DNA of 53,313 nt from a virus (Duplodnaviria; Caudoviricetes): positions 1 through 53,313 of the IMG/VR virus record IMGVR_UViG_3300009164_000103. One strand, 5' to 3'. This document shows positions 26,729 through 40,241 of the stretch, in pieces. The stretch's first letter is position 1. Each line of letters opens with the position of its first letter. Under the pieces are notes generated by a model. The model ran no database searches and was not told the origin of the DNA. It saw nothing but the letters and a program-made list of their open reading frames with translations. Position numbers and translations under genes: made by a program.

Positions 26729-26782
26729 GATTGATCTCCTTGATCGTTGGTTAGGTTATGGTTTTGTCTCAGAATGAGACAG

Positions 26783-27805
26783 TTAGAAGATGTCTTGGTA
26801 CTTGGCATTGTTGAGCATAGCCATCACAGATGGGACTGTAATGGATTCTGGCTTACGCTGGTGGGTATCCCTGAGGAACAAGCACCCATACTCAGGAGAC
26901 ATACGCTGTATGTACTCGCACAGTGCGCCAGAGTTAGTGGGGTTCCAGTTAGCGGACAGATAGGTGGCGGTTGCGTAGCATTCGCTTAATGCTATCGGCA
27001 GTGGCGCAGAACTAGGCGATGCCTCAATCGCTGAGATGTTAGGTAGGCTTCTCCAGACACGCATGAAGCCCAGGAACTCAGTGCCTGTGCCTTGTCCAAT
27101 GCATCCGTTGATTAACTCCCCGGCAATGTCAGTGTCAGGCTGCTGGTCCATGATGCGAGACAGCATCTCGACAGAGCGTGGGGTACAGAAAGCGAACTCG
27201 CTTTTGTTAGGTTGTGCCACTAGTAGTGGCTTGCGGAACTCAAAGAACCCTATGATCTCTGGCCGAATAGATGGACTGATAGGCTTAGGCGCAACTAACT
27301 CAACCTTGAGGTTGTCGCCGCTGATTGCCCAATCCTTCCAGGAATCGAAGCTCGATTCGAGATTGATATGCAAGAAGCGATTCAACAATGGCGCAGGTGG
27401 CTGGTTGTAATTGCCGCCGTCCTCTGCTCTGTTGCCAGTTGCGCATATGTACGCACCCTTGGGTAGAGTATAGTCGCCTAGCTTACGCTCTAATACTAAC
27501 TGATAGAAGGCGCATTGCATAGACACTGGCGCATCTGGTAACTCCTCAATTACCATGATGGTGTTGTCTTGCGTAGGCAACCAAGAGGGAATGGCTCTCT
27601 TGCAGATGCCGTTCTCGATGTAAGGTATACCCATATCTACTGGGTCCATCGTTGTTGGTCGTGCGTCGATGTGTATATACTTCCACGCCCTACTGACACA
27701 GGAGAGTCCTGAAGTCTTACCCACTCCCGTCTGCCCCCATACCCATGCAGGTACTTTAGCGTTGATGCAGACCTGTATTGCCTTCATGAATTGCTTTGAG
27801 TACAT
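26783..27805 (-). CDS. MoxR-like AAA+ ATPase
   Basis: Walker A GQTGVGKT, Walker B-like VIEEL, ATGNR, LLNRF, TPRS. Confidence 0.9.
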   Translation of the reverse strand: MYSKQFMKAIQVCINAKVPAWVWGQTGVGKTSGLSCVSRAWKYIHIDARPTTMDPVDMGIPYIENGICKRAIPSWLPTQDNTIMVIEELPDAPVSMQCAFYQLVLERKLGDYTLPKGAYICATGNRAEDGGNYNQPPAPLLNRFLHINLESSFDSWKDWAISGDNLKVELVAPKPISPSIRPEIIGFFEFRKPLLVAQPNKSEFAFCTPRSVEMLSRIMDQQPDTDIAGELINGCIGQGTGTEFLGFMRVWRSLPNISAIEASPSSAPLPIALSECYATATYLSANWNPTNSGALCEYIQRMSPEYGCLFLRDTHQRKPESITVPSVMAMLNNAKYQDIF

Positions 27806-27828
27806 AGTAATCTCCCTTTGGTTGGTTG

Positions 27829-27945
27829 TTAGATACAGCTTGCGATGTAGCTGATAGCTACTACGAAAACGATTGCCATTGCTAGACTGATTAGCTCAGT
27901 TAGCAGGTTGTTTGTGTCAGATAGAACGGAGAAGGCTTTCTTCAC
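27829..27945 (-). CDS. Small membrane peptide (38 aa, not in ORF track)
   Basis: GTGA overlap with the upstream ORF; hydrophobic LISLAMAIVFVVAISYIA. Confidence 0.45.
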   Translation of the reverse strand: MKKAFSVLSDTNNLLTELISLAMAIVFVVAISYIASCI

Positions 27946-28115
27946 AGTGCCTCCCCGTTGTTCTCCCTCTCCAGCATCATGAGTTCTGCCGCTCGATACC
28001 TAGTCTTAGAGTTGAGTATCATTGCATGCAACATCTCTTGCTGCAACTCATCCTCGATCTGAAAGATGCCGCTATCGTCATCCCATACGAATCGAACATC
28101 CAAACATATCTTCAT
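27942..28115 (-). CDS. Hypothetical protein (57 aa, not in ORF track)
   Basis: GGAGG RBS; MKICLDVRFVWDDD...; start/stop overlaps at both ends. Confidence 0.55.
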   Translation of the reverse strand: MKICLDVRFVWDDDSGIFQIEDELQQEMLHAMILNSKTRYRAAELMMLERENNGEAL

Positions 28116-28234
28116 GACTTGCCCTCCATTATGTTCAAGTACACTGCTCCAGCAGTAGCCAGCACAGCCACCAGATAGTCTCCGGTTATCACTCCAACCA
28201 GTACACCCAAAGTTGCTATTGCATAGCGAATCAT
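28112..28234 (-). CDS. Small membrane peptide (40 aa, not in ORF track)
   Basis: ATGA overlaps at both ends; MIRYAIATLGVLVGVITGDYLVAVLATAGAVYL. Confidence 0.5.
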   Translation of the reverse strand: MIRYAIATLGVLVGVITGDYLVAVLATAGAVYLNIMEGKS

Positions 28235-28398
28235 TGGCTCAACTCCTGTGCCACAAGGGCATCCAGACCAAGCGCGTAGATGATACCCCCCGCCCTGTAG
28301 TAGTTCATAATCACAGCCGCATCTCTAGACTTAGCTGCCTCCAGTAGTACATAGTCAAACACTCGCCCTAATAGAGCTGCTGCATCTGCATGGTTCAT
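28231..28398 (-). CDS. Hypothetical protein
   Basis: GGAGGT RBS; ATGA-coupled start MNHAD. Confidence 0.55.
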   Translation of the reverse strand: MNHADAAALLGRVFDYVLLEAAKSRDAAVIMNYYRAGGIIYALGLDALVAQELSQ

Positions 28399-28832
28399 GC
28401 GTTCACCTCCCGCTCGACTGAATAGCACCTTGCCAAGTCCTCTGCGATCTGAACTGGATTGAATTCGTTTTGTCGGGCCACCTCATCCTTGTCATCTTCG
28501 TCAATATTGGCGTCCATCCACTCGATAACATCGGTTGGGCTGAATGTCTCGTTGTCTCGCTGGATAATCCGCGCCAGCTCCATCGTCAGCCGCTCTCTGA
28601 TTGGGTAGAGGCTGACCTTCCACCCCATCTCTTTCTGCACCGCACGGGCAGCGCGGAATCTGTAGCCAGACCCGCTGAATACCAGCGCATTCGTCTCGTC
28701 CTGGTCAAGTGTCCAGGCATCGTAGTCCCCGCATTCGGAAACCGGACGACCAAATACTTCGTCGTCTATGTTGGCAGTTTTGAGTAGGCATGATTCACTC
28801 GTAACGTAGCAATAAATCTTTTGATTGGTCAT
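28395..28832 (-). CDS. Hypothetical early protein
   Basis: GAGGA RBS directly after a palindrome copy. Confidence 0.65.
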   Translation of the reverse strand: MTNQKIYCYVTSESCLLKTANIDDEVFGRPVSECGDYDAWTLDQDETNALVFSGSGYRFRAARAVQKEMGWKVSLYPIRERLTMELARIIQRDNETFSPTDVIEWMDANIDEDDKDEVARQNEFNPVQIAEDLARCYSVEREVNA

Positions 28833-28842
28833 GTCTCGTCCT

Positions 28843-29298
28843 CTACTTGTGTCTCACAGTGAGACAGTTTAGTATCCAGTATCCATAGACACACCGACTC
28901 CCATTACGGCTTGGGTTGTAAGTGTCTCTTATCACGCCATCAATCATGCAAGTGAGATGATTGGTCACCCTGATGACTATCCTGCCCATAGGTAGTTCGT
29001 CTGCCTTCAGGTGAACACGGCAACCATCTCCAACCTGCATGGTAGGGGTCCAGGTGAAGCCCAGACCTACCATGTAATCGCGGAACCACTTGCGCCTTGT
29101 GTATATACCAGCGTCAGCGGTTTGTTCTGTAGCTTTGCTACGTTTAGTCTTTCGCTGTGCATAGTTACCTTGCGCCAGCGATTCATGTACTTGTGCGTAT
29201 GGTAAACCTGTAGCTATGGCTACCGCACGGGCAGCGCAATCTTTCGCCTTGCCCTTGAATCCAGCGGCCTTACGACCACCATCGTCATATACCCACAC
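28843..29298 (-). CDS. Conserved phage protein with DC...H...DT motif set (possible papain-like fold)
   Basis: YDDGGR, DCAARAVAIATG, HLTCMIDGVIRDT, CVYGYW. GTG start reassigned after GAGGT. Confidence 0.7.
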   Translation of the reverse strand: MWVYDDGGRKAAGFKGKAKDCAARAVAIATGLPYAQVHESLAQGNYAQRKTKRSKATEQTADAGIYTRRKWFRDYMVGLGFTWTPTMQVGDGCRVHLKADELPMGRIVIRVTNHLTCMIDGVIRDTYNPSRNGSRCVYGYWILNCLTVRHK

Positions 29299-29302
29299 GT
29301 TG

Positions 29303-29647
29303 TTAGACCTCGCTGCTACCCATGAACTTATCGAATCCCGCACGTTGTACCGGGGGAAGGTTATCAATCTCTGAAGGCGAGGCGTTGACCATGATCCAGG
29401 CGTATGCTTTGTTGTCTGACATAAACCTGTAGGTATCGTTGCTGCCCTGCCAGTTAGACCAAGCATTCAGCACCCACTTACCGCTGGCAGTCAGGAACAG
29501 GGCCTCATGATCCCACTGTCCCCCAGTAGCTTTGCTGATCTGGTTACGACCATCGAAGGTCGTGTCTTCGTCTATCTTGATAGCCTTGCTTTCATCGAAC
29601 CAAGCAAGCGTCTCGTTCTGTTCGTTAGTGATGATTCTCTTTTTCAT
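29303..29647 (-). CDS. Hypothetical early protein
   Basis: GAGGA RBS; WFD...HEALFLTASGKWVL...WSNWQG. Confidence 0.7.
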   Translation of the reverse strand: MKKRIITNEQNETLAWFDESKAIKIDEDTTFDGRNQISKATGGQWDHEALFLTASGKWVLNAWSNWQGSNDTYRFMSDNKAYAWIMVNASPSEIDNLPPVQRAGFDKFMGSSEV

Positions 29648-29680
29648 GTATCCTCTTTTGTGTCTCACTGTGAGACAGTT

Positions 29681-29737
29681 TGGCTGTTGCCTACGCCTTA
29701 CGGCGTTTCGTCCGGGCCGGGGGACTCATCAGGGCTA
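29681..29737 (-). ncRNA. Type I hammerhead ribozyme (HHR-1)
   Basis: Minus strand reads GCC-CUGAUGA-GUCC(CCCGGCCC)GGAC-GAA-ACGCC(GUAA)GGCGU-A/GGC. Complete core; predicted cleavage between 29692 and 29691. Confidence 0.92.
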
Positions 29738-29754
29738 GGTCCACGTCATGATAG

Positions 29755-30156
29755 TCATAAGATCTCCCTACCACAATCGTCGAACCGTTCGCCCGTCTCT
29801 TCGCCCCACTGGGATGGATGGGCCAGCTCCTGACCGTAGCCGTTGTAAAACCTACCGCACCGACAGCCGTTGGTCGTGGCGTCGTCTAGATGTACGTATA
29901 AGCCGCAAGTGCACCTACCTCCGCCAGCCATCATGTAGCTATGCTTGCGCGCTTCTAAGGCCGGGGTGTAGCGGTCTGGCTGGAAAAGCATGGAACACAG
30001 ATTGCGGATAGCTGCATCCGATAGCGCCAATGGATCCAAAACACAGCCATCAACATCACAATCAAAACCTATGCCACAGCCTGGATTATGTTTATCCCAC
30101 GCTGATAAGCTGTAAGTTGTCCTGATTCCCCTTCGTCTTGGTCTTATATCCTTCAT
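29755..30156 (-). CDS. Hypothetical Cys-rich protein
   Basis: AGGAG RBS; start MKDIRP; CTCG...CRCGRFYNGYGQEL...QWGEETGE. Confidence 0.7.
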   Translation of the reverse strand: MKDIRPRRRGIRTTYSLSAWDKHNPGCGIGFDCDVDGCVLDPLALSDAAIRNLCSMLFQPDRYTPALEARKHSYMMAGGGRCTCGLYVHLDDATTNGCRCGRFYNGYGQELAHPSQWGEETGERFDDCGREIL

Positions 30157-30171
30157 TTCATATCTCCTGGT

Positions 30172-30229
30172 TGGCTGTTGCCGACCCCCGTAAGGGGTTT
30201 CGTCCCGTGCCAGGGGACTCATCAGGGCG
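30172..30229 (-). ncRNA. Type I hammerhead ribozyme (HHR-2)
   Basis: Minus strand reads GCC-CUGAUGA-GUCCC(CUGGCAC)GGGAC-GAA-ACCCC(UUACG)GGGGU-C/GGC. Predicted cleavage between 30183 and 30182. Confidence 0.92.
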
Positions 30230-30232
30230 GGG

Positions 30233-30490
30233 TTAGCAGCCGCAGCAAGGGTAATCCTCGCAGCCGCATCTGATGCGCCCGATCTCTCGCCCATCGTAAG
30301 CGTACAGCCCGTTGGGGTCACGCATGGAGGCGTAGTATCCCGCTGGACGTGGGCGGATTGGTCTATCTGGTCCTGCCTTGCAACCTAGGCAGTACAGCTT
30401 TGAGTTGCTGTAGTTTGCCTTGGACCCGGCCTGTATCTGTGTACCGCAAGCACGACAGGGCGCGGAGTATCTTACTGTGATCGTAGCCAT
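30233..30490 (-). CDS. Small Cys-rich protein ending in CEDYPCCGC
   Basis: RYSAPCRACG..I..G, CLGC, CGCEDYPCCGC; TAATG-coupled start. Confidence 0.7.
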   Translation of the reverse strand: MATITVRYSAPCRACGTQIQAGSKANYSNSKLYCLGCKAGPDRPIRPRPAGYYASMRDPNGLYAYDGREIGRIRCGCEDYPCCGC

Positions 30491-30732
30491 TACAGCCCCC
30501 CATCCCGTTGCTTGATCTCTAGAGTTAGTTCTTCCCATCGGTAGGAGTCACCATCTAGACTTGCCATGTCTAGTTCGTATTTCATCTCGTCACCGTGCCG
30601 TAAGGCATTCCGTAAGATTCGGACCTTGTCCGATAGGTAGCAACTCCAAAGTCCCCCATCGTTCATCGGCGCTTCTAGTTCTGCCAGTTCGGCAGATACC
30701 CACTGCGTAAACTTCTCTACTGATTTGTTCAT
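30490..30732 (-). CDS. Hypothetical early protein
   Basis: AGGAG RBS before MNKSVEKF. Confidence 0.6.
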   Translation of the reverse strand: MNKSVEKFTQWVSAELAELEAPMNDGGLWSCYLSDKVRILRNALRHGDEMKYELDMASLDGDSYRWEELTLEIKQRDGGL

Positions 30733-30802
30733 CTCATCTCCTGATTTGATTGTGATAGTGGGGGAGTATCTCCCCCCCACGTTTGTCTCACTGTGAGACA
30801 GT

Positions 30803-31513
30803 CTAGGTTAGAACCACGAACGGATTGTTTGCGGCTTTCTTGAAGCTGCCCTTGATGCGTAGTCCTACTACCACGCCTGGATTGTCGAGGAATCGAGCGT
30901 CTGATTTGTCCCCGTCTATCACGGGGTAACCATTCCATGTTTCAGGCAATGCGCCGTGACGTTTGACAGCGAAGCATACAGCTACAGTCCCGCCCTCTCG
31001 CAAGTACTTGAGTGCCGTTGGTAGTGCTTCAGGGCGCTCACTGTACGAATAGACGAGGTGGTAGCCGTCTATCTTCTTAGGCGGTAGCTTGGTATAGTCG
31101 TATACCCGCGCCTCAGGGTGATGCTTTTTGCAATAGTTCACCACCCATAACCCAAGGTCGCGCCTATCTGTTGCGCCGTTGGGACGGAATGCTGGAGCGT
31201 ATCCCTTGCGCTTACAGCGCCTAACATGAGCGTCAATCTCACGTGCATAGTCGAGGAGAAAGTTCTCACGGTCATTCAAGTAGCGTAGGGTACGGTTCAC
31301 CCGTGCGGCTTTGTTCTTAGGCATGACCATGCGCCCGGAGTTGTTGCCCAAGCATATAGTGGCGCAACTCCCAGCGTTGGCGCACATATTCACGCCGCCA
31401 TATGGGACGGATTCCGTAGCTGGAGACATGTAAGATACTGCAGGCCATGCGTTATCCCATGATTTGCCTTTAGTAATCTTTGACGAGTCTATCGTTATCA
31501 ACTTCTTGTTCAT
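30803..31513 (-). CDS. Gp88-like protein
   Basis: C..A..C...CL...GR, FRPNGATD, YDYTK, VIDGDKSDARFLD, VVGLRIKG; AAGGA RBS after a palindrome. Confidence 0.8.
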   Translation of the reverse strand: MNKKLITIDSSKITKGKSWDNAWPAVSYMSPATESVPYGGVNMCANAGSCATICLGNNSGRMVMPKNKAARVNRTLRYLNDRENFLLDYAREIDAHVRRCKRKGYAPAFRPNGATDRRDLGLWVVNYCKKHHPEARVYDYTKLPPKKIDGYHLVYSYSERPEALPTALKYLREGGTVAVCFAVKRHGALPETWNGYPVIDGDKSDARFLDNPGVVVGLRIKGSFKKAANNPFVVLT

Positions 31514-31570
31514 TTTTGTATCCTTATGTCTCACTGTGAGACAGTTTCAAGTTGTCTCACTGTGAGACAG

Positions 31571-31855
31571 TTAGTATTCTCGGCTCAACTTGAATAACTC
31601 ATGAGCCGTCTTAACACGCTGATCCACTAATGATTGGACCGCTACCAGCAACTCTCGCCTATTGATACACAGGTTAGCCAATTGTTTATGTTCATTCGTA
31701 GGCTCACTAGTTGCCACGATATAGTTATCGCTAGCGTGGAACGAGTTGTTCCATTCGGAGTATACGTATACCGGATACTCTTTCACGGCTTTGGCGAATG
31801 ATCTAGCTAAGGATACATCAGGATCCTCTATCATGTATTCCGTAACATACGTCAT
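31571..31855 (-). CDS. Hypothetical early protein
   Basis: AGGAG RBS; flanked on both sides by palindrome pairs. Confidence 0.65.
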   Translation of the reverse strand: MTYVTEYMIEDPDVSLARSFAKAVKEYPVYVYSEWNNSFHASDNYIVATSEPTNEHKQLANLCINRRELLVAVQSLVDQRVKTAHELFKLSREY

Positions 31856-31914
31856 GGCGTACTCCTAAGGTTGTCTCACTGTGAGACAGTTTGTCTAGTC
31901 TTGAGGTTGTCTCA

Positions 31915-32469
31915 TTATGAGACAACTCGTAGGACTTCAGAAACGAAGCGGTCGGCTTCATATTGTGGGGCTAGTTTTTTCATGCGCTTAATGAGCGCGT
32001 CATACTTTTCTTGCCAATCGTCACTCTCACTCTCACCCGCTCCCTCGCCATCTTTCTCTTTCTTCTCTTTCCCTAGCAATGCGTCAACCTTAATTTTAAG
32101 GTCAGCCACTGTCGCGATGCTCTTATCAATGCGCCCATTGATAAGGTTGGGGATATCCCCAGACTCCCAGAATTTAGTGGCAGTATCGTGGTCGGTACCA
32201 AGTCTAGCTAGCTGATACATGCTAGCCTCACCTACTAATGCGAGATCAGTATCGGAGATCTCTACATACTTCAGGAGTAACCCTAAAGACTTCATCCGAT
32301 AAAACGTAGGACGCGAGATATCCACGTCATTCCCCACTAGCCACTTCTCGACACTGTCGTAAGGCGCATATAGTTCCTGCGCCGATACCTCATATAGCGC
32401 CCGGCTTAGTACGCCGAACATCTTAGCGCGGCTGAGCGCCGCCGTCTTGATTACTGTAATGTAGTTCAC
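31915..32469 (-). CDS. First gene of the early operon; possible HTH-containing DNA-binding protein
   Basis: AAGGA RBS; SVEKWL...DISRPTFYRMK resembles a recognition helix; its stop codon is the spacer of a palindrome copy. Confidence 0.55.
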   Translation of the reverse strand: MNYITVIKTAALSRAKMFGVLSRALYEVSAQELYAPYDSVEKWLVGNDVDISRPTFYRMKSLGLLLKYVEISDTDLALVGEASMYQLARLGTDHDTATKFWESGDIPNLINGRIDKSIATVADLKIKVDALLGKEKKEKDGEGAGESESDDWQEKYDALIKRMKKLAPQYEADRFVSEVLRVVS

Positions 32470-32599
32470 GTTTGTATCCTTTATGTCTCACTGTGAGACA
32501 ATCTGGGGAAGTGTAGGCTTCGAGCAGTTTCTGTGTTGTTTAACTCTCCAGTGCACTCAGTGCTCCCGGGTTGCATTCTGTGCTATCTGCTACTCCTCT

Positions 32600-32628
32600 A
32601 TAATAACAAGTATCAGTGGGTATGTCAA
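32600..32628 (-). promoter_or_regulatory. Strong sigma70-type early promoter
   Basis: TTGACA(32628-23)-17 bp-TATTAT(32605-00) with extended TG; inverted repeat ATGTCA-N6-TGACAT (32622-32639) overlaps the -35. Confidence 0.85.
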
Positions 32629-37694: not shown

Positions 37695-40241
37695 GTGAAT
37701 ATAAGCAATATCCTTGCTGGTCAGTACACTCCGCAACAGATCACTAAGATAATAGCCAAGGCAAAGCAGCTCCCTTATGATGAACAGGTTGAGCTAGCGA
37801 ACTTGCTTGGGCAGTACGAGAATATTCTCAAGGTGCAGAAGTGCCAGAAGAACTTTATTGATTTCGTCAAAGAGATGTGGCCTGCCTTTATTCCCGGTAG
37901 GCATCATGATATCATGGCCGACGCCTTTGAGCGGGTAGCAAACGGAACCTGTAAGCGCCTGATTATCAACATGGCACCTCGCCATACAAAATCGGAATTC
38001 AGTTCGTACCTGCTCCCAGCTTGGTTCCTTGGCAAGTATCCAGACAAGAAGATTATCCAAACGGCACACACAGCAGAACTTGCTGTAGGGTTTGGTCGAA
38101 AGGTAAGGAACCTAGTCGGAAACCCGCACTACCAGAAGATCTTCCCTAACGTGTCTCTTTCGTCAGACTCCAAGGCCGCTGGTCGATGGAATACGAATAA
38201 GGGAGGAGATTACTTTGCCATAGGCGTCGGAGGCGCGGTTACTGGAAAAGGTGCAGATTGTGCATACTTTGCTTGTAAGTGCTTGACTCTTAATGGTATG
38301 CTACCTATATCCCAAGTGAAAGTTGGGCAGGAGGTATATGGATATAATCACAAACTGGGAAGATCAGAATGGACAAGAGTCCTTGCAGTCTCTACCCAAT
38401 ACAAACCTGAGCTTGTTTCCGTTGGAGGATTCATCTGCACCCCAGATCACAGAATCTACGACGGATCAGACTACACAAAAGCATCTGAAGCACGTTCCGC
38501 TACAGTGCTGCCGATGTGGGAAAGACTTTCTTCGCTTGAGGAAGGAGCACGAAAGATCACTGAGGAGAAGGGGGACGACCAAGGAGTCGAGGTATTACTG
38601 CTCGAACGCTTGCCGGGAGGTAGGGGGAATCTACAACAAGTGTCCACTCTGCGACGAATGGAAAGCGCAGATGGCAGTAACATGCAAGGCATGTTATCTG
38701 AAGGACAAGCATGTGAAGGTCAATTGCTCTCACTGCAAGAAGGACTTCATGAAGGTTTCCTCGGAGTTCAAGAAGGGAGAGGAGAGAAGCGGAAACAAGA
38801 ATCACTTCTGCACGAAGGCGTGTTATTCGGACTGGAAGGCGACCAGACCAAAAACGTCAGTTCCACTTACCGGGACGTGCAATACTTGCAAATCTCAGTG
38901 CCTTGGGAAGAAAAGGTATTGCAGCAGGGATTGCTACTCGAAGAGGAAGGCCAAGAGCACTACCTACGTCGGGGCTTGGGGCGAGAGGAAGAGATTCGTA
39001 AGGAAGAGGGACAACGGGGTCTGTGCCTATTGCCAACGAGTAAAGGACAGGTCAGCGGTACATCACATCAACCAGGACGCGACGGACAACAGGTTGGAGA
39101 ACATGATACTACTCTGCGAGCCGTGTCACAACCATTATCATCATACAGCGTCGGAACCTGTGCAGAGGATCTTAAGAGCCTACTTCGAGGGTCTGGTCAC
39201 TGGGTAGTTGATATTCAAACTGAGAGCAAGAACTTCTTCTGTGAGGGGGTTCTTGCTCATAATTGCCTCATCATTGACGACCCGCACAGTGAGCAAGAGG
39301 CCGCTATAGCTGCCGCAAATCCTAGCATTTACGACGGCGTGTACGAGTGGTATACGTCTGGTCCTCGTCAGCGTTTGCAGCCTGGAGGGGCCATTGTTAT
39401 CGTCATGACTCGCTGGAGCAAGCGAGATCTATGCGGTCAAATCCTAAAGGCATCGTCTCAGAAAGATGGCTTAGATGAATGGGAAGTGATTGAGTTCCCC
39501 GCTATCATGCCGTCTGGCAATCCGTTATGGCCTGAGTTCTGGCCTCTGGAAGAACTGGAAAAGATCAAGGCTGAACTTCCCGTCGCCAAGTGGAATGCAC
39601 AGTATCAGCAAAATCCTACCTCTGAAGAGGGTGCTCTTGTAAAAAGAGAGTGGTGGAAGATATGGGAAAAGGACGAGCCGCCAGTCTGTGAGTACATCAT
39701 TCAGTCCTGGGACACCGCACTAACCAAAGGCACTCGATCAGATTATTCAGCCTGTACGACATGGGGAATATTCTACGAGAAAGATAATGATGGTAAAAGG
39801 GTAGCTAAGATTATACTCTTGAATGCGTATCAAGATAAGCTAGAGTTCCCTGAACTTAAGCAAAAGGCGCTAGAGGAGTATCGTTATTGGAAGCCAGACT
39901 GTTGCATCATTGAAGCAAAGGCTGCTGGTGGACCACTTGTGTTTGAGTTACGCAAGATGGGCATACCAATTCAAGATTACACTCCATCTCGTGGTAATGA
40001 TAAGATTGTTCGTGTAAATGCTGTTAGTGATATATTCGCTTCAGGTTTTGTTTACGCACCTCCTTTGCGCTGGGCAGAGGAGCTTATTGAACAGTTCGCT
40101 TCGTTTCCTAACTCTGACCATGATGACCTTGTTGACAGTTCAACGCAGGCCCTGTTGCGATTCAGGCAGGGCGGGTTTATATCAACACAGAGCGATGAAG
40201 ACGAAGAGTACGTTCCCAACAAGAAAGCAGATTACTACTAA
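37695..40241 (+). CDS. terL: Terminase large subunit precursor containing an intein (513 aa after splicing)
   Basis: MAPRHTKSE (Walker A), GKGAD|CLIIDDPH (Walker B restored on splicing), VMTRW, YQQNP, QSWDTA, DYSACTTWG, HDDLVDS. Confidence 0.95.
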   Translation: MNISNILAGQYTPQQITKIIAKAKQLPYDEQVELANLLGQYENILKVQKCQKNFIDFVKEMWPAFIPGRHHDIMADAFERVANGTCKRLIINMAPRHTKSEFSSYLLPAWFLGKYPDKKIIQTAHTAELAVGFGRKVRNLVGNPHYQKIFPNVSLSSDSKAAGRWNTNKGGDYFAIGVGGAVTGKGADCAYFACKCLTLNGMLPISQVKVGQEVYGYNHKLGRSEWTRVLAVSTQYKPELVSVGGFICTPDHRIYDGSDYTKASEARSATVLPMWERLSSLEEGARKITEEKGDDQGVEVLLLERLPGGRGNLQQVSTLRRMESADGSNMQGMLSEGQACEGQLLSLQEGLHEGFLGVQEGRGEKRKQESLLHEGVLFGLEGDQTKNVSSTYRDVQYLQISVPWEEKVLQQGLLLEEEGQEHYLRRGLGREEEIRKEEGQRGLCLLPTSKGQVSGTSHQPGRDGQQVGEHDTTLRAVSQPLSSYSVGTCAEDLKSLLRGSGHWVVDIQTESKNFFCEGVLAHNCLIIDDPHSEQEAAIAAANPSIYDGVYEWYTSGPRQRLQPGGAIVIVMTRWSKRDLCGQILKASSQKDGLDEWEVIEFPAIMPSGNPLWPEFWPLEELEKIKAELPVAKWNAQYQQNPTSEEGALVKREWWKIWEKDEPPVCEYIIQSWDTALTKGTRSDYSACTTWGIFYEKDNDGKRVAKIILLNAYQDKLEFPELKQKALEEYRYWKPDCCIIEAKAAGGPLVFELRKMGIPIQDYTPSRGNDKIVRVNAVSDIFASGFVYAPPLRWAEELIEQFASFPNSDHDDLVDSSTQALLRFRQGGFISTQSDEDEEYVPNKKADYY
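38259..39263 (+). mobile_element. Intein (335 aa, TerL residues 189-523)
   Basis: N-terminal Cys, ISQVKVGQEV, block B CTPDHRI, block F VVDIQTESKNFF, block G VLAHN, then +1 Cys. Confidence 0.92.
38338..39207 (+). CDS. Zinc-finger-rich HNH homing endonuclease nested in the +1 frame of the intein
   Basis: Eight CxxC/CxxxC units, then VRKRDNGVCAYC...VHHINQDATDNRLENMILLCEPCHNHYH; AGGAGG just before the ATG at 38338. Confidence 0.85.
   Translation: MDIITNWEDQNGQESLQSLPNTNLSLFPLEDSSAPQITESTTDQTTQKHLKHVPLQCCRCGKDFLRLRKEHERSLRRRGTTKESRYYCSNACREVGGIYNKCPLCDEWKAQMAVTCKACYLKDKHVKVNCSHCKKDFMKVSSEFKKGEERSGNKNHFCTKACYSDWKATRPKTSVPLTGTCNTCKSQCLGKKRYCSRDCYSKRKAKSTTYVGAWGERKRFVRKRDNGVCAYCQRVKDRSAVHHINQDATDNRLENMILLCEPCHNHYHHTASEPVQRILRAYFEGLVTG

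What the first reader, a model, noticed from the sequence alone, without database searches (positions are those of the whole stretch)
29681..30229. Two hammerhead ribozymes flank a single gene in the early operon
Seen: two minus-strand copies with a perfect CUGAUGA/GAAA/NUH core. Stems II and III differ in sequence but keep their pairing (ACGCC/GGCGU versus ACCCC/GGGGU). Both have a 3-bp stem I and a conserved 3' tail AACAGCCA that can pair with GGC/UGGC in loop II. Each lies between a stop codon and the next RBS. Known: type I hammerheads with loop II pseudoknots occur in bacterial and phage intergenic regions, with largely unknown function. Inference: cleavage at both would release a ~490-nt RNA holding only ORF 29755-30156, with 5'-OH and 2',3'-cyclic phosphate ends that RtcB-type ligases can join, so a circular mRNA is possible.
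Basis: partly seen in the sequence, partly recalled or inferred. Interest (0 to 1): 0.82.

Follow-up and report, generated by a model that had tools for sequence, protein, structure and literature searches.

The report
Hammerhead ribozyme pair flanking phage gene
Two self-cutting RNA motifs (hammerhead ribozymes) really do bracket one small gene in a freshwater phage's early operon, but this arrangement in phages was described in 2011, so it is a new example of a known thing.

Summary
Two minus-strand type I hammerheads (30228-30172 and 29735-29681) have a complete catalytic core, a 3-bp stem I, stems II and III, and a 3' tail (GCCA) complementary to GGC in loop II. Each lies between a stop codon and the next ribosome-binding site. 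The predicted cuts (30183|30182 and 29692|29691) bracket a 491-nt RNA that carries only ORF 29755-30156. Rfam misses both at its gathering score (19 and 17 bits against 34). A model built here finds 25 copies (21 distinct) in related freshwater phage contigs. Only core position N7 varies, and pairs in all four helices change on both sides.

Relatives carry the ribozymes at several different gene junctions, around different genes, always just upstream of a ribosome-binding site. The best reading is intercistronic mRNA processing or insulation at the edges of exchangeable gene cassettes.

Perreault et al. 2011 already described several hammerheads flanking single genes in prophages, the pseudoknot, and the circular-RNA idea, which they looked for and did not detect. 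Nothing here supports a circular mRNA. No self-cleavage data exist for this locus. This is a new member of a known kind, of moderate-to-low interest.

The parts
30172..30228 (-). Hammerhead A (type I). Stem I is GCC/GGC, the core is CUGAUGA...GAAA, stem II is 5 bp with loop CUGGCAC, and stem III is 5-6 bp. Cleavage falls after C17 (30183|30182). The tail is AACA-GCCA.
   Evidence: Sequence read. Rfam RF00163 scores 19.0 bits, below the gathering score. Own model R1 scores 77 bits, though this copy was part of the model's seed.
29681..29735 (-). Hammerhead B (type I). Stem I is GCC/GGC, stem II is 4 bp with loop CCCGGCCC, and stem III is ACGCC/GGCGU. Cleavage falls after A17 (29692|29691). The tail is AACA-GCCA.
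   Evidence: Sequence read. Rfam RF00163 scores 17.0 bits, below the gathering score. R1 scores 79.1 bits, though this copy was part of the model's seed.
29692..30182 (-). Predicted 491-nt RNA between the two cleavage sites. Its 5'-OH end is G30182 and its 2',3'-cyclic phosphate end is A29692. It carries the ribosome-binding site, ORF P0001 and the body of hammerhead B at its 3' end.
   Evidence: Arithmetic. The end chemistry follows from the established hammerhead mechanism and was not measured.
29755..30156 (-). Flanked gene P0001, a 133-aa cysteine-rich protein with no Pfam or PHROG match. The protein-atlas search points to 'Phage gene 86 protein' clusters, which is a lead only.
   Evidence: Ninety-two relatives were found in viral contigs.
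30233..30538 (-). Upstream gene P0002, 101 aa and cysteine-rich. Its TAA stop ends 4 nt before stem I of hammerhead A.
29303..29647 (-). Downstream gene of 114 aa (MKKRIITNE...), preceded by hammerhead B, a hairpin and a ribosome-binding site.
   Evidence: Homologues in L197 and L209 have the same junction.
29661..29677 (-). Hairpin of 7 bp with a 3-nt loop (UGUCUCA-CAG-UGAGACA), lying between the tail of hammerhead B and the ribosome-binding site. It is one of 9 copies of this repeat in the operon.
30164..30168 (-). Shine-Dalgarno sequence AGGAG of P0001. It starts 3 nt after the pseudoknot tail GCCA of hammerhead A.
   Evidence: Relatives show the same tight spacing.
32600..32628 (-). Sigma-70-like promoter (TTGACA-17-TATTAT with an upstream TG), the likely start of the leftward operon.
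   Evidence: This is a consensus match only.

Best explanation
Both elements are functional type I hammerhead self-cleaving ribozymes. They belong to a subfamily with a very short stem I (3 bp) whose active fold is held by a 3-4-bp pseudoknot between GGC in loop II and GCC(A) four nucleotides 3' of stem I.

They are transcribed as part of a leftward polycistronic early mRNA and cut it in the intercistronic spacers, 26 and 44 nt upstream of the next start codon.

Inferred consequences:
- Each downstream cistron starts with a short, defined 5'-OH leader (tail, then an optional hairpin, then the ribosome-binding site) that does not depend on upstream RNA.
- Each upstream piece ends in a compact ribozyme fold with a 2',3'-cyclic phosphate.
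- Expression and decay of neighbouring cistrons are therefore uncoupled. The synthetic hammerhead-plus-hairpin insulator RiboJ does the same thing.

Because the ribozyme-plus-ribosome-binding-site unit is self-contained, it marks the borders of gene cassettes that relatives have swapped, gained or lost.

Shown here: motif, conservation, covariation, placement and cassette variation. Inferred: cleavage in vivo, end chemistry and the effects on stability and translation.
For: 1. The complete core and all three helices are read from the sequence. Rfam's type I model aligns over its full length.
2. Model R1 finds 25 copies (21 distinct) in 14 sources. Ten of these were not in its seed. It finds 7 more in 6 further viral contigs.
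3. As a negative control, R1 gives 0 matches at E<=0.1 in 456 kb of other phage DNA.
4. The only core position that varies is N7, which is U or C.
5. In the pair count, 96.6% of cells are paired. Six of 16 pairs show changes on both sides. None of 500 shuffles reaches this, and slid controls give 23-43% paired. Stem III pair 15.3-16.3 is G-C 12, C-G 7 and U-A 1.
6. For the pseudoknot, GGC/GCC is present in all 20 full-length distinct copies. L191 changes to UGGGC/GCCCA.
7. Of the 18 copies listed by the script, which left out five duplicate loci, 16 have a start codon 22-52 nt after the cleavage site that opens an ORF of 57 aa or more. The other two (window B and L197c) were assigned an in-frame GTG inside the hairpin. 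Their likely ATG, read by eye, lies 44 nt after the cleavage site. The Shine-Dalgarno sequence starts 3-6 nt after the tail in copies without a hairpin.
8. Cassette variation:
- L209, L200 and L232 have a 57-aa ORF between the two ribozymes where the window has P0001.
- L197 has a third ribozyme and an extra gene.
- L193 carries that same extra gene at another junction.
- L214 and L232 have a ribozyme at a junction where the window has only hairpins.
9. An unrelated hairpin lies between the tail and the ribosome-binding site in several divergent members.
10. Literature:
- PMC3088659 describes clustered prophage hammerheads flanking genes. It shows that pseudoknots are critical for fast cleavage and that three A. 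tumefaciens copies cleave in vivo.
- PMC7536230 describes RiboJ as a hammerhead plus a hairpin that normalises the 5' UTR, and states that uncleaved mRNA decays faster.
Against: - There is no cleavage assay and no RNA-end data for this locus.
- Rfam scores are below the gathering score for both copies. No copy in the 13 relatives' loci reaches it either.
- Nested thermodynamic folding does not recover stem I. It pairs GGC with the tail GCC as a mini-hairpin instead. The z-score is only -0.31 for hammerhead A and -2.15 for hammerhead B with its hairpin.
- The pseudoknot is supported by conservation and by a single covarying sequence (L191). The alignment used for the counts was fitted to the structure.
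- The stem I 3' strand and loop II have the same sequence, so alternative pairings cannot be excluded.
- The effects on stability and insulation are analogy, not data.
Confidence: 0.7

Rival explanations
1. Circular mRNA. The 491-nt fragment excised by both ribozymes has a 5'-OH end and a 2',3'-cyclic phosphate end. A host RtcB-type ligase, or the reverse hammerhead reaction, joins them to give a translatable circular mRNA for P0001.
For: - The end chemistry is right for RtcB, by the established hammerhead mechanism.
- The two ribozymes share identical stem I (GCC/GGC) and pseudoknot (GGC/GCCA) sequences. The 5' end left by hammerhead A could therefore dock on the body of hammerhead B and rebuild a complete hammerhead across the junction.
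- The ribosome-binding site lies inside the fragment.
- Stem I and pseudoknot sequences are nearly invariant across copies while stems II and III vary. Interchangeable ends would produce that pattern.
Against: - No junction evidence exists, and RNA-library contigs do not cover the gene.
- The phage record, 87% complete, has no RtcB or Rnl2-type ligase.
- Only 3 bp of stem I and 3-4 bp of pseudoknot hold the product, which favours release over re-ligation (inference).
- Perreault et al. 2011 looked for circular or spliced products from clustered prophage hammerheads and detected neither (PMC3088659; their data were not shown).
- Many relatives carry a single ribozyme at a junction (L191, L211, L224, L236, L215), which cannot make circles.
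- Shared stem sequences are equally explained by recent duplication.
Confidence: 0.06
2. A role mainly at the DNA level. The ribozyme sequences of about 58 nt, 80-93% identical to one another, and the 17-nt hairpin repeats serve mainly as short homologies. The phage's own recombination system uses them to exchange or delete gene cassettes. RNA cleavage would be secondary.
For: - Cassette gain, loss and replacement fall exactly at ribozyme borders in relatives.
- The phage encodes an Erf-like annealing protein, an exonuclease and RusA.
- Some copies are bracketed by a 6-nt direct repeat, CTAGCC. The ribozyme-less junction in the window (31889-31907) reads like what would remain after deletion between such repeats.
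Against: A recombination linker does not need an intact catalytic core, variation confined to N7, H17 held to C or A, or compensatory changes in stems. Those features show selection on the RNA fold. This reading is better seen as a consequence of repeated ribozymes than as an alternative function.
Confidence: 0.12
3. Cleavage as a switch. Ribosome or protein binding next to the pseudoknot tail, or alternative pairing of the duplicated GCC/GGC segments, tunes how much transcript is cut. The ratio of upstream to downstream gene expression would then be set conditionally, not constitutively.
For: - The Shine-Dalgarno sequence starts 3-6 nt after the tail, so a 30S subunit and the pseudoknot would compete.
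- The MFE fold prefers the competing GGC-AACA-GCC mini-hairpin.
- In L191 all four segments change together.
Against: - No ligand-binding or sensor element is visible.
- Only one sequence shows the concerted change.
- Hammerheads with pseudoknots are reported as fast constitutive cleavers (PMC3088659).
Confidence: 0.08
4. Chance motifs or inactive relics with no function.
For: - Rfam scores are below threshold.
- The bare core pattern is not rarer than chance.
- Stem I is only 3 bp.
Against: - The full pattern was absent from all 100 shuffles.
- There are 21 distinct conserved copies with covariation.
- The negative control gave 0 hits in 456 kb.
- Placement upstream of ribosome-binding sites is consistent.
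Confidence: 0.04

Closest known systems
Clustered hammerhead ribozymes flanking genes in prophages (Perreault et al. 2011, PLoS Comput Biol, PMC3088659; passages read)
   Same: - Several hammerheads sit close together and flank single genes or short gene blocks in phage DNA.
- The flanked genes are not constant.
- A pseudoknot between the stem I and stem II regions replaces the loop-loop contact.
- The authors proposed processing of long phage transcripts into single-gene mRNAs, and raised the circular or spliced product idea.
   Different: - This is a lytic-looking freshwater phage contig, not an annotated prophage.
- Every copy in this group is type I with a 3-bp stem I (4 bp in the wider family) and a fixed GGC/GCC pseudoknot.
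- The copies sit within 3-6 nt of a Shine-Dalgarno sequence.
- I could not see that paper's figures or supplementary alignments, so I cannot say whether this exact subfamily is already in their data set.
RiboJ synthetic insulator, a hammerhead plus a 23-nt hairpin (described in PMC7536230; passages read)
   Same: A hammerhead, then a hairpin, then a ribosome-binding site. Cleavage removes the upstream RNA and gives a fixed 5' leader. Hammerhead B with its hairpin has this layout, as do copies in L200, L237, L240 and L244.
   Different: - RiboJ is engineered from a plant satellite RNA ribozyme (that origin is recalled, not from a call) and sits behind promoters.
- These copies are natural, sit between cistrons, and many lack the hairpin.
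- The functional equivalence is an analogy and was not tested.
Rfam RF00163 Hammerhead_1 (type I)
   Same: Same core, same topology (stem I open, stems II and III capped), and a full-length alignment to the model.
   Different: The score is about half the gathering threshold (19 and 17 bits against 34) because 3 of the model's 6 stem I pairs are missing. No copy in the window or in 13 related loci reaches the threshold. Routine annotation would miss them.
Hammerhead-bounded circular RNAs (viroid-like agents, retrozymes) and type I hammerheads in 5' UTRs of RNA viruses (PMC7761336, passages read; PMC13725137, abstract read)
   Same: Pairs of same-sense hammerheads bracket a short RNA segment. 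In RNA viruses a 5'-UTR hammerhead whose cleavage enables translation has been shown in eukaryotic hosts.
   Different: Those are eukaryotic systems with replicating or retrotransposed circles. Here the elements are in a DNA phage operon, with ribosome-binding sites, and there is no evidence of circles.

Membership tests
Hammerhead ribozyme (type I) | Conserved core C3 U4 G5 A6 N7 G8 A9 ... G12 A13 A14 | tested here: met
   Both copies read CUGAUGA and GAAA. All 24 full-length aligned copies keep them, and only N7 varies between U and C.
Hammerhead ribozyme (type I) | Base pairs next to the core: 10.1-11.1, 1.1-2.1 and A15.1-U16.1. This is a rejection criterion in PMC3088659 Methods. | tested here: met
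   G-C, C-G and A-U are present in both copies and are invariant in the distinct rows that have letters at those columns: 21 of 21, 20 of 20 and 20 of 20.
Hammerhead ribozyme (type I) | Cleavage-site nucleotide H17 is not G | tested here: met
   C17 in hammerhead A and A17 in hammerhead B. Among the 16 distinct sequences, 13 have C and 3 have A.
Hammerhead ribozyme (type I) | Three helices around the core, with stems II and III capped and stem I open, supported by covariation | tested here: met
   96.6% of cells are paired, 6 pairs change on both sides, and 0 of 500 shuffles reach this. Stem I is only 3 bp.
Hammerhead ribozyme (type I) | Tertiary contact between the stem I and stem II regions (here a loop II to 3' tail pseudoknot) | tested here: inconclusive
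   GGC/GCC complementarity is present in all 20 distinct full-length copies, and L191 covaries once (GGGC/GCCC). The same tail can also pair with the stem I 3' strand. No structure probing was done.
Hammerhead ribozyme (type I) | Reaches the Rfam RF00163 gathering score (34 bits) | tested here: not met
   19.0 and 17.0 bits. No hit at the gathering score in the window or in 13 related loci. The shortfall is explained by the short stem I. This is an annotation threshold, not a biochemical definition.
Hammerhead ribozyme (type I) | Site-specific Mg2+-dependent self-cleavage giving 2',3'-cyclic phosphate and 5'-OH ends | not testable with these tools
   Needs in vitro transcription or end-specific RNA-seq. 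The contigs from RNA libraries were uninformative.
Hammerhead-derived circular RNA | A covalently joined junction between the two cleavage sites | not testable with these tools
   Only assembled contigs were available, and none covers 29692-30182 in an RNA library.

The most novel reading that the evidence does not exclude
The two ribozymes excise a 491-nt single-gene RNA whose ends are mutually compatible: the 5' end left by hammerhead A can rebuild a hammerhead with the body of hammerhead B. A host RtcB-type ligase or the reverse reaction then joins them. This would give a natural, translatable circular mRNA in a bacteriophage infection. The same would apply to the 241-540-nt ribozyme-bounded cassettes in relatives.
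Probability: 0.06. Interest if true: 0.85.

Novelty: new member of a known kind. Interest (0 to 1): 0.33.

Why it matters
The function of bacterial and phage hammerheads is still unproven. This phage group gives a clean comparative series:
- The same operon occurs with a ribozyme present or absent at given junctions.
- Different genes sit between the same pair of ribozymes.
- A ribosome-binding site always lies a few nucleotides after the ribozyme.

That makes the processing or insulation idea directly testable with reporters. It also suggests that natural phages use the same design that synthetic biologists built as RiboJ.

The practical point is that none of these copies reaches Rfam's threshold, so standard annotation overlooks this subfamily.

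Tried and rejected
- Rfam at the gathering score gave nothing in the window or in 13 related loci. Only the permissive scan showed the type I model.
- A blastn of 2.8 kb against the deposited phage collection gave no match.
- I tested whether the ribozymes travel with the P0001 gene family. None of the 80 viral loci encoding P0001 relatives has the strict motif or a model hit. That idea is rejected.
Parsing showed that nearly all hits were coding-sequence coincidences, and only the window, L083 and L084 were hammerheads. I abandoned it for core-anchored patterns.
- My first regex required U at N7 and so missed the C7 copies. The covariance model recovered them.
- The first genome-contig scan found 0. 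The second found 7 contigs in metagenome-assembled genomes labelled as five different bacterial groups. Binning of phage contigs is unreliable, so I infer no host.
- RNA evidence came to nothing.
  - One metatranscriptome run (X7) has two contigs at 100% identity covering 29300-29674. They end 17 nt short of the predicted 5' end at 29691.
  - No RNA-library contig covers either ribozyme or P0001.
  - These are contigs from one study, DNA carry-over is possible, and uncovered stretches prove nothing, so I draw no conclusion.
  - X23 and X24 hold only short or divergent pieces.
  - An apparent odd placement of X3 record 5 at 29661-29679 is the hairpin repeat at 30784-30800 of a colinear contig, not a variant.
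- Searches of the phage record for ligases found no RtcB and no RNA_ligase. The T4 Rnl1 search rang in no control genome and says nothing.
- No tRNA genes were found.
- Thermodynamic folding is not informative for stem I or the pseudoknot.
- I did not request supplementary files because the session states they are closed. Perreault's Dataset S1 and Figures 2, 3 and S4 may already include this subfamily.
- Literature searches for natural circular mRNAs made by phage hammerheads listed reviews and methods papers only (6 papers; 1 paper). These searches are limited, so this is not proof that nothing is in print.

Full report
**What is there**

The window is a 53,313-base virus record from IMG/VR, estimated 87% complete. 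It carries terminase, portal and virion genes on the plus strand. A leftward block on the minus strand holds small ORFs of unknown function, followed by an ATPase, an HNH endonuclease, an exonuclease, an Erf-like annealing protein, RusA and dUTPase. A sigma-70-like promoter (TTGACA-17-TATTAT, 11 of 12 matches, with TG) lies at 32628-32600 on the minus strand. 'Early operon' is therefore a fair label, though it is inferred.

Read on the minus strand, both elements have the full hammerhead core and type I topology. Exact positions are in the observation check and the parts list. Each lies between a stop codon (TAA 30235-30233; TGA 29757-29755) and the next ribosome-binding site. The predicted cuts (30183|30182 and 29692|29691) bracket 491 nt that hold only ORF 29755-30156.

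**Is it more than chance?**

- The bare core pattern is not significant: 3 matches against 1.35 expected.
- The full pattern with the tail occurs twice, and none of 100 shuffles gave any match.
- Rfam's type I model aligns end to end but scores 19.0 and 17.0 bits against a gathering score of 34. Nothing passes the gathering score in the window.

The decisive support is comparative. Core-anchored scans found related copies in viral contigs and in 45 metagenome stretches.

- A covariance model built from 16 distinct sequences finds 25 copies, 21 of them distinct, in 14 sources. These include copies that were not in its seed (L193:542, L209:7156, L200:1211, L208:13285).
- It finds 7 more in 6 further viral contigs.
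- It finds none at E<=0.1 in 456 kb of other phage DNA.
- Across copies the only core position that changes is N7, which is U or C.
- H17 is C or A.
- Pair counts give 96.6% paired cells, and 6 of 16 pairs change on both sides. None of 500 shuffles reaches this, and slid controls give 23-43% paired. The alignment was fitted to the model, which favours the structure somewhat.

**The pseudoknot**

- Loop II always contains GGC, and the tail always contains GCC(A), placed 3-4 nt after stem I.
- The one sequence that differs, L191, has UGGGC and GCCCA, and also a 4-bp stem I GCCC/GGGC.
- This fits the pseudoknot. But the stem I 3' strand and loop II have the same sequence, so the tail could also pair with the stem I 3' strand. 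Nested folding predicts exactly that mini-hairpin.
- I rate the pseudoknot likely but not shown.

**Context in relatives**

Contigs 81-92% identical to this operon show ribozymes at varying junctions.

- L209, L200 and L232 have the same two ribozymes, but with a 57-aa ORF between them in place of P0001.
- L197 has three ribozymes bracketing an extra gene and then P0001.
- L193 has that extra gene behind a ribozyme at a different junction.
- L214 and L232 have a ribozyme inserted between two hairpins, at a junction where the window has only the hairpins.
- More distant P0001 relatives (80 loci) have no ribozyme nearby.
- The ribozymes therefore mark cassette borders and do not serve one particular gene.
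- Of the 18 copies the script examined, 16 have a start codon opening an ORF of 57 aa or more 22-52 nt after the cut. For window B and L197c the script chose a GTG inside the hairpin, and the likely ATG is 44 nt after the cut.
- The Shine-Dalgarno sequence begins 3-6 nt after the tail.
- In several divergent members an unrelated hairpin sits between the tail and the ribosome-binding site.

**How it most likely works**

Co-transcriptional self-cleavage cuts the polycistronic RNA just upstream of each ribosome-binding site. The downstream cistron gets a short, fixed 5'-OH leader. The upstream piece ends in the folded ribozyme with a cyclic phosphate. The weak hold on the product (3 bp plus 3-4 bp) should favour release.

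This is the logic of the engineered RiboJ insulator, a hammerhead plus a hairpin that normalises the 5' UTR, where uncleaved mRNA decays faster (PMC7536230). These steps are inferred, and nothing here measures cleavage, stability or translation.

**Comparison with what is known**

Perreault et al. 2011 (PMC3088659; passages read) reported the following:
- Multiple hammerheads flank individual genes or short gene blocks in prophages, and the identities of those genes are not constant.
- They proposed processing into single-gene mRNAs.
- About 40% of hammerheads use a pseudoknot between the stem I and stem II regions, and this pseudoknot is critical for speed.
- Circular or spliced products were considered but not detected.

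The kind of arrangement and the circle idea are therefore both in print. Two searches for later reports of natural circular mRNAs from phage hammerheads listed nothing relevant.

The phage record has no RtcB or Rnl2-type ligase. Contigs from RNA libraries do not bear on cleavage or circles.

**Verdict**

This is a genuine pair of hammerheads and a new member of a known kind. Its useful extras are the ribozyme presence/absence series at cassette borders, the recurring ribozyme-hairpin-ribosome-binding-site layout, and the fact that Rfam misses the subfamily. Interest is moderate to low. The circular-mRNA reading remains possible but unsupported, at about 6%.

Noticed in passing
window 26765-32500 (copies at 26765, 28850, 29661, 30784, 31527, 31553, 31872, 31908, 32484): A 17-nt perfect palindrome or hairpin, TGTCTCA-CAG-TGAGACA, occurs 9 times. 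That is 18 strand matches with up to 3 mismatches, against 0.14 expected. All copies lie in the 5' UTR or in intercistronic spacers of the leftward operon, just before ribosome-binding sites. One follows hammerhead B directly. Relatives keep it (L209, L214, L227, L232). At the same spot L200 has a different hairpin, which hints at an RNA stem-loop rather than a fixed DNA operator. Its function was not resolved.
   Followed up: partly
window 31889-31907 compared with L214:860-930; L209:7150-7220: The ribozyme-less junction in the window reads ...ACTAGACAAAC+hairpin. L214 has a 60-nt hammerhead inserted at exactly that point. Some copies (L209, L200, L197b) are bracketed by a 6-nt direct repeat, CTAGCC, made of the 5' flank with the stem I strand and of the tail. 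Deletion between such repeats would leave the sequence seen in the window.
   Followed up: partly
L243-L249 (genome contigs) and L237-L242 (viral contigs): A wider family shows the same design: stem I CGCC/GGCG, GGC in loop II, a GCC(A) tail, and a ribosome-binding site downstream. It occurs in contigs binned to metagenome-assembled genomes labelled Saccharibacteria, Bryobacteraceae (two contigs of 66-70 kb), Bacillota, Clostridia and Dehalococcoidia. I draw no host inference.
   Followed up: partly
window 37695-40241 (+): The 848-aa large terminase matches terminase profiles in two separate stretches (residues 50-189 and 525-833), with about 335 unmatched residues between them. An intein or another insertion is possible.
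   Followed up: no
window 30233-30538 and 29755-30156 (-): Both small proteins beside hammerhead A are cysteine-rich, with CxxC- and CxC-type motifs. The C-terminal 45 residues of P0001 are 50-67% identical in dozens of otherwise unrelated viral contigs. The atlas search points to 'Phage gene 86 protein' clusters. The nearby 243-aa ORF matches Pfam GP88.
   Followed up: partly
window 29300-29674: Contigs from a lake metatranscriptome library (run X7) match at 100% and stop 17 nt short of the predicted 5' end produced by hammerhead B. This comes from one study and from contigs only, so it is not evidence.
   Followed up: no
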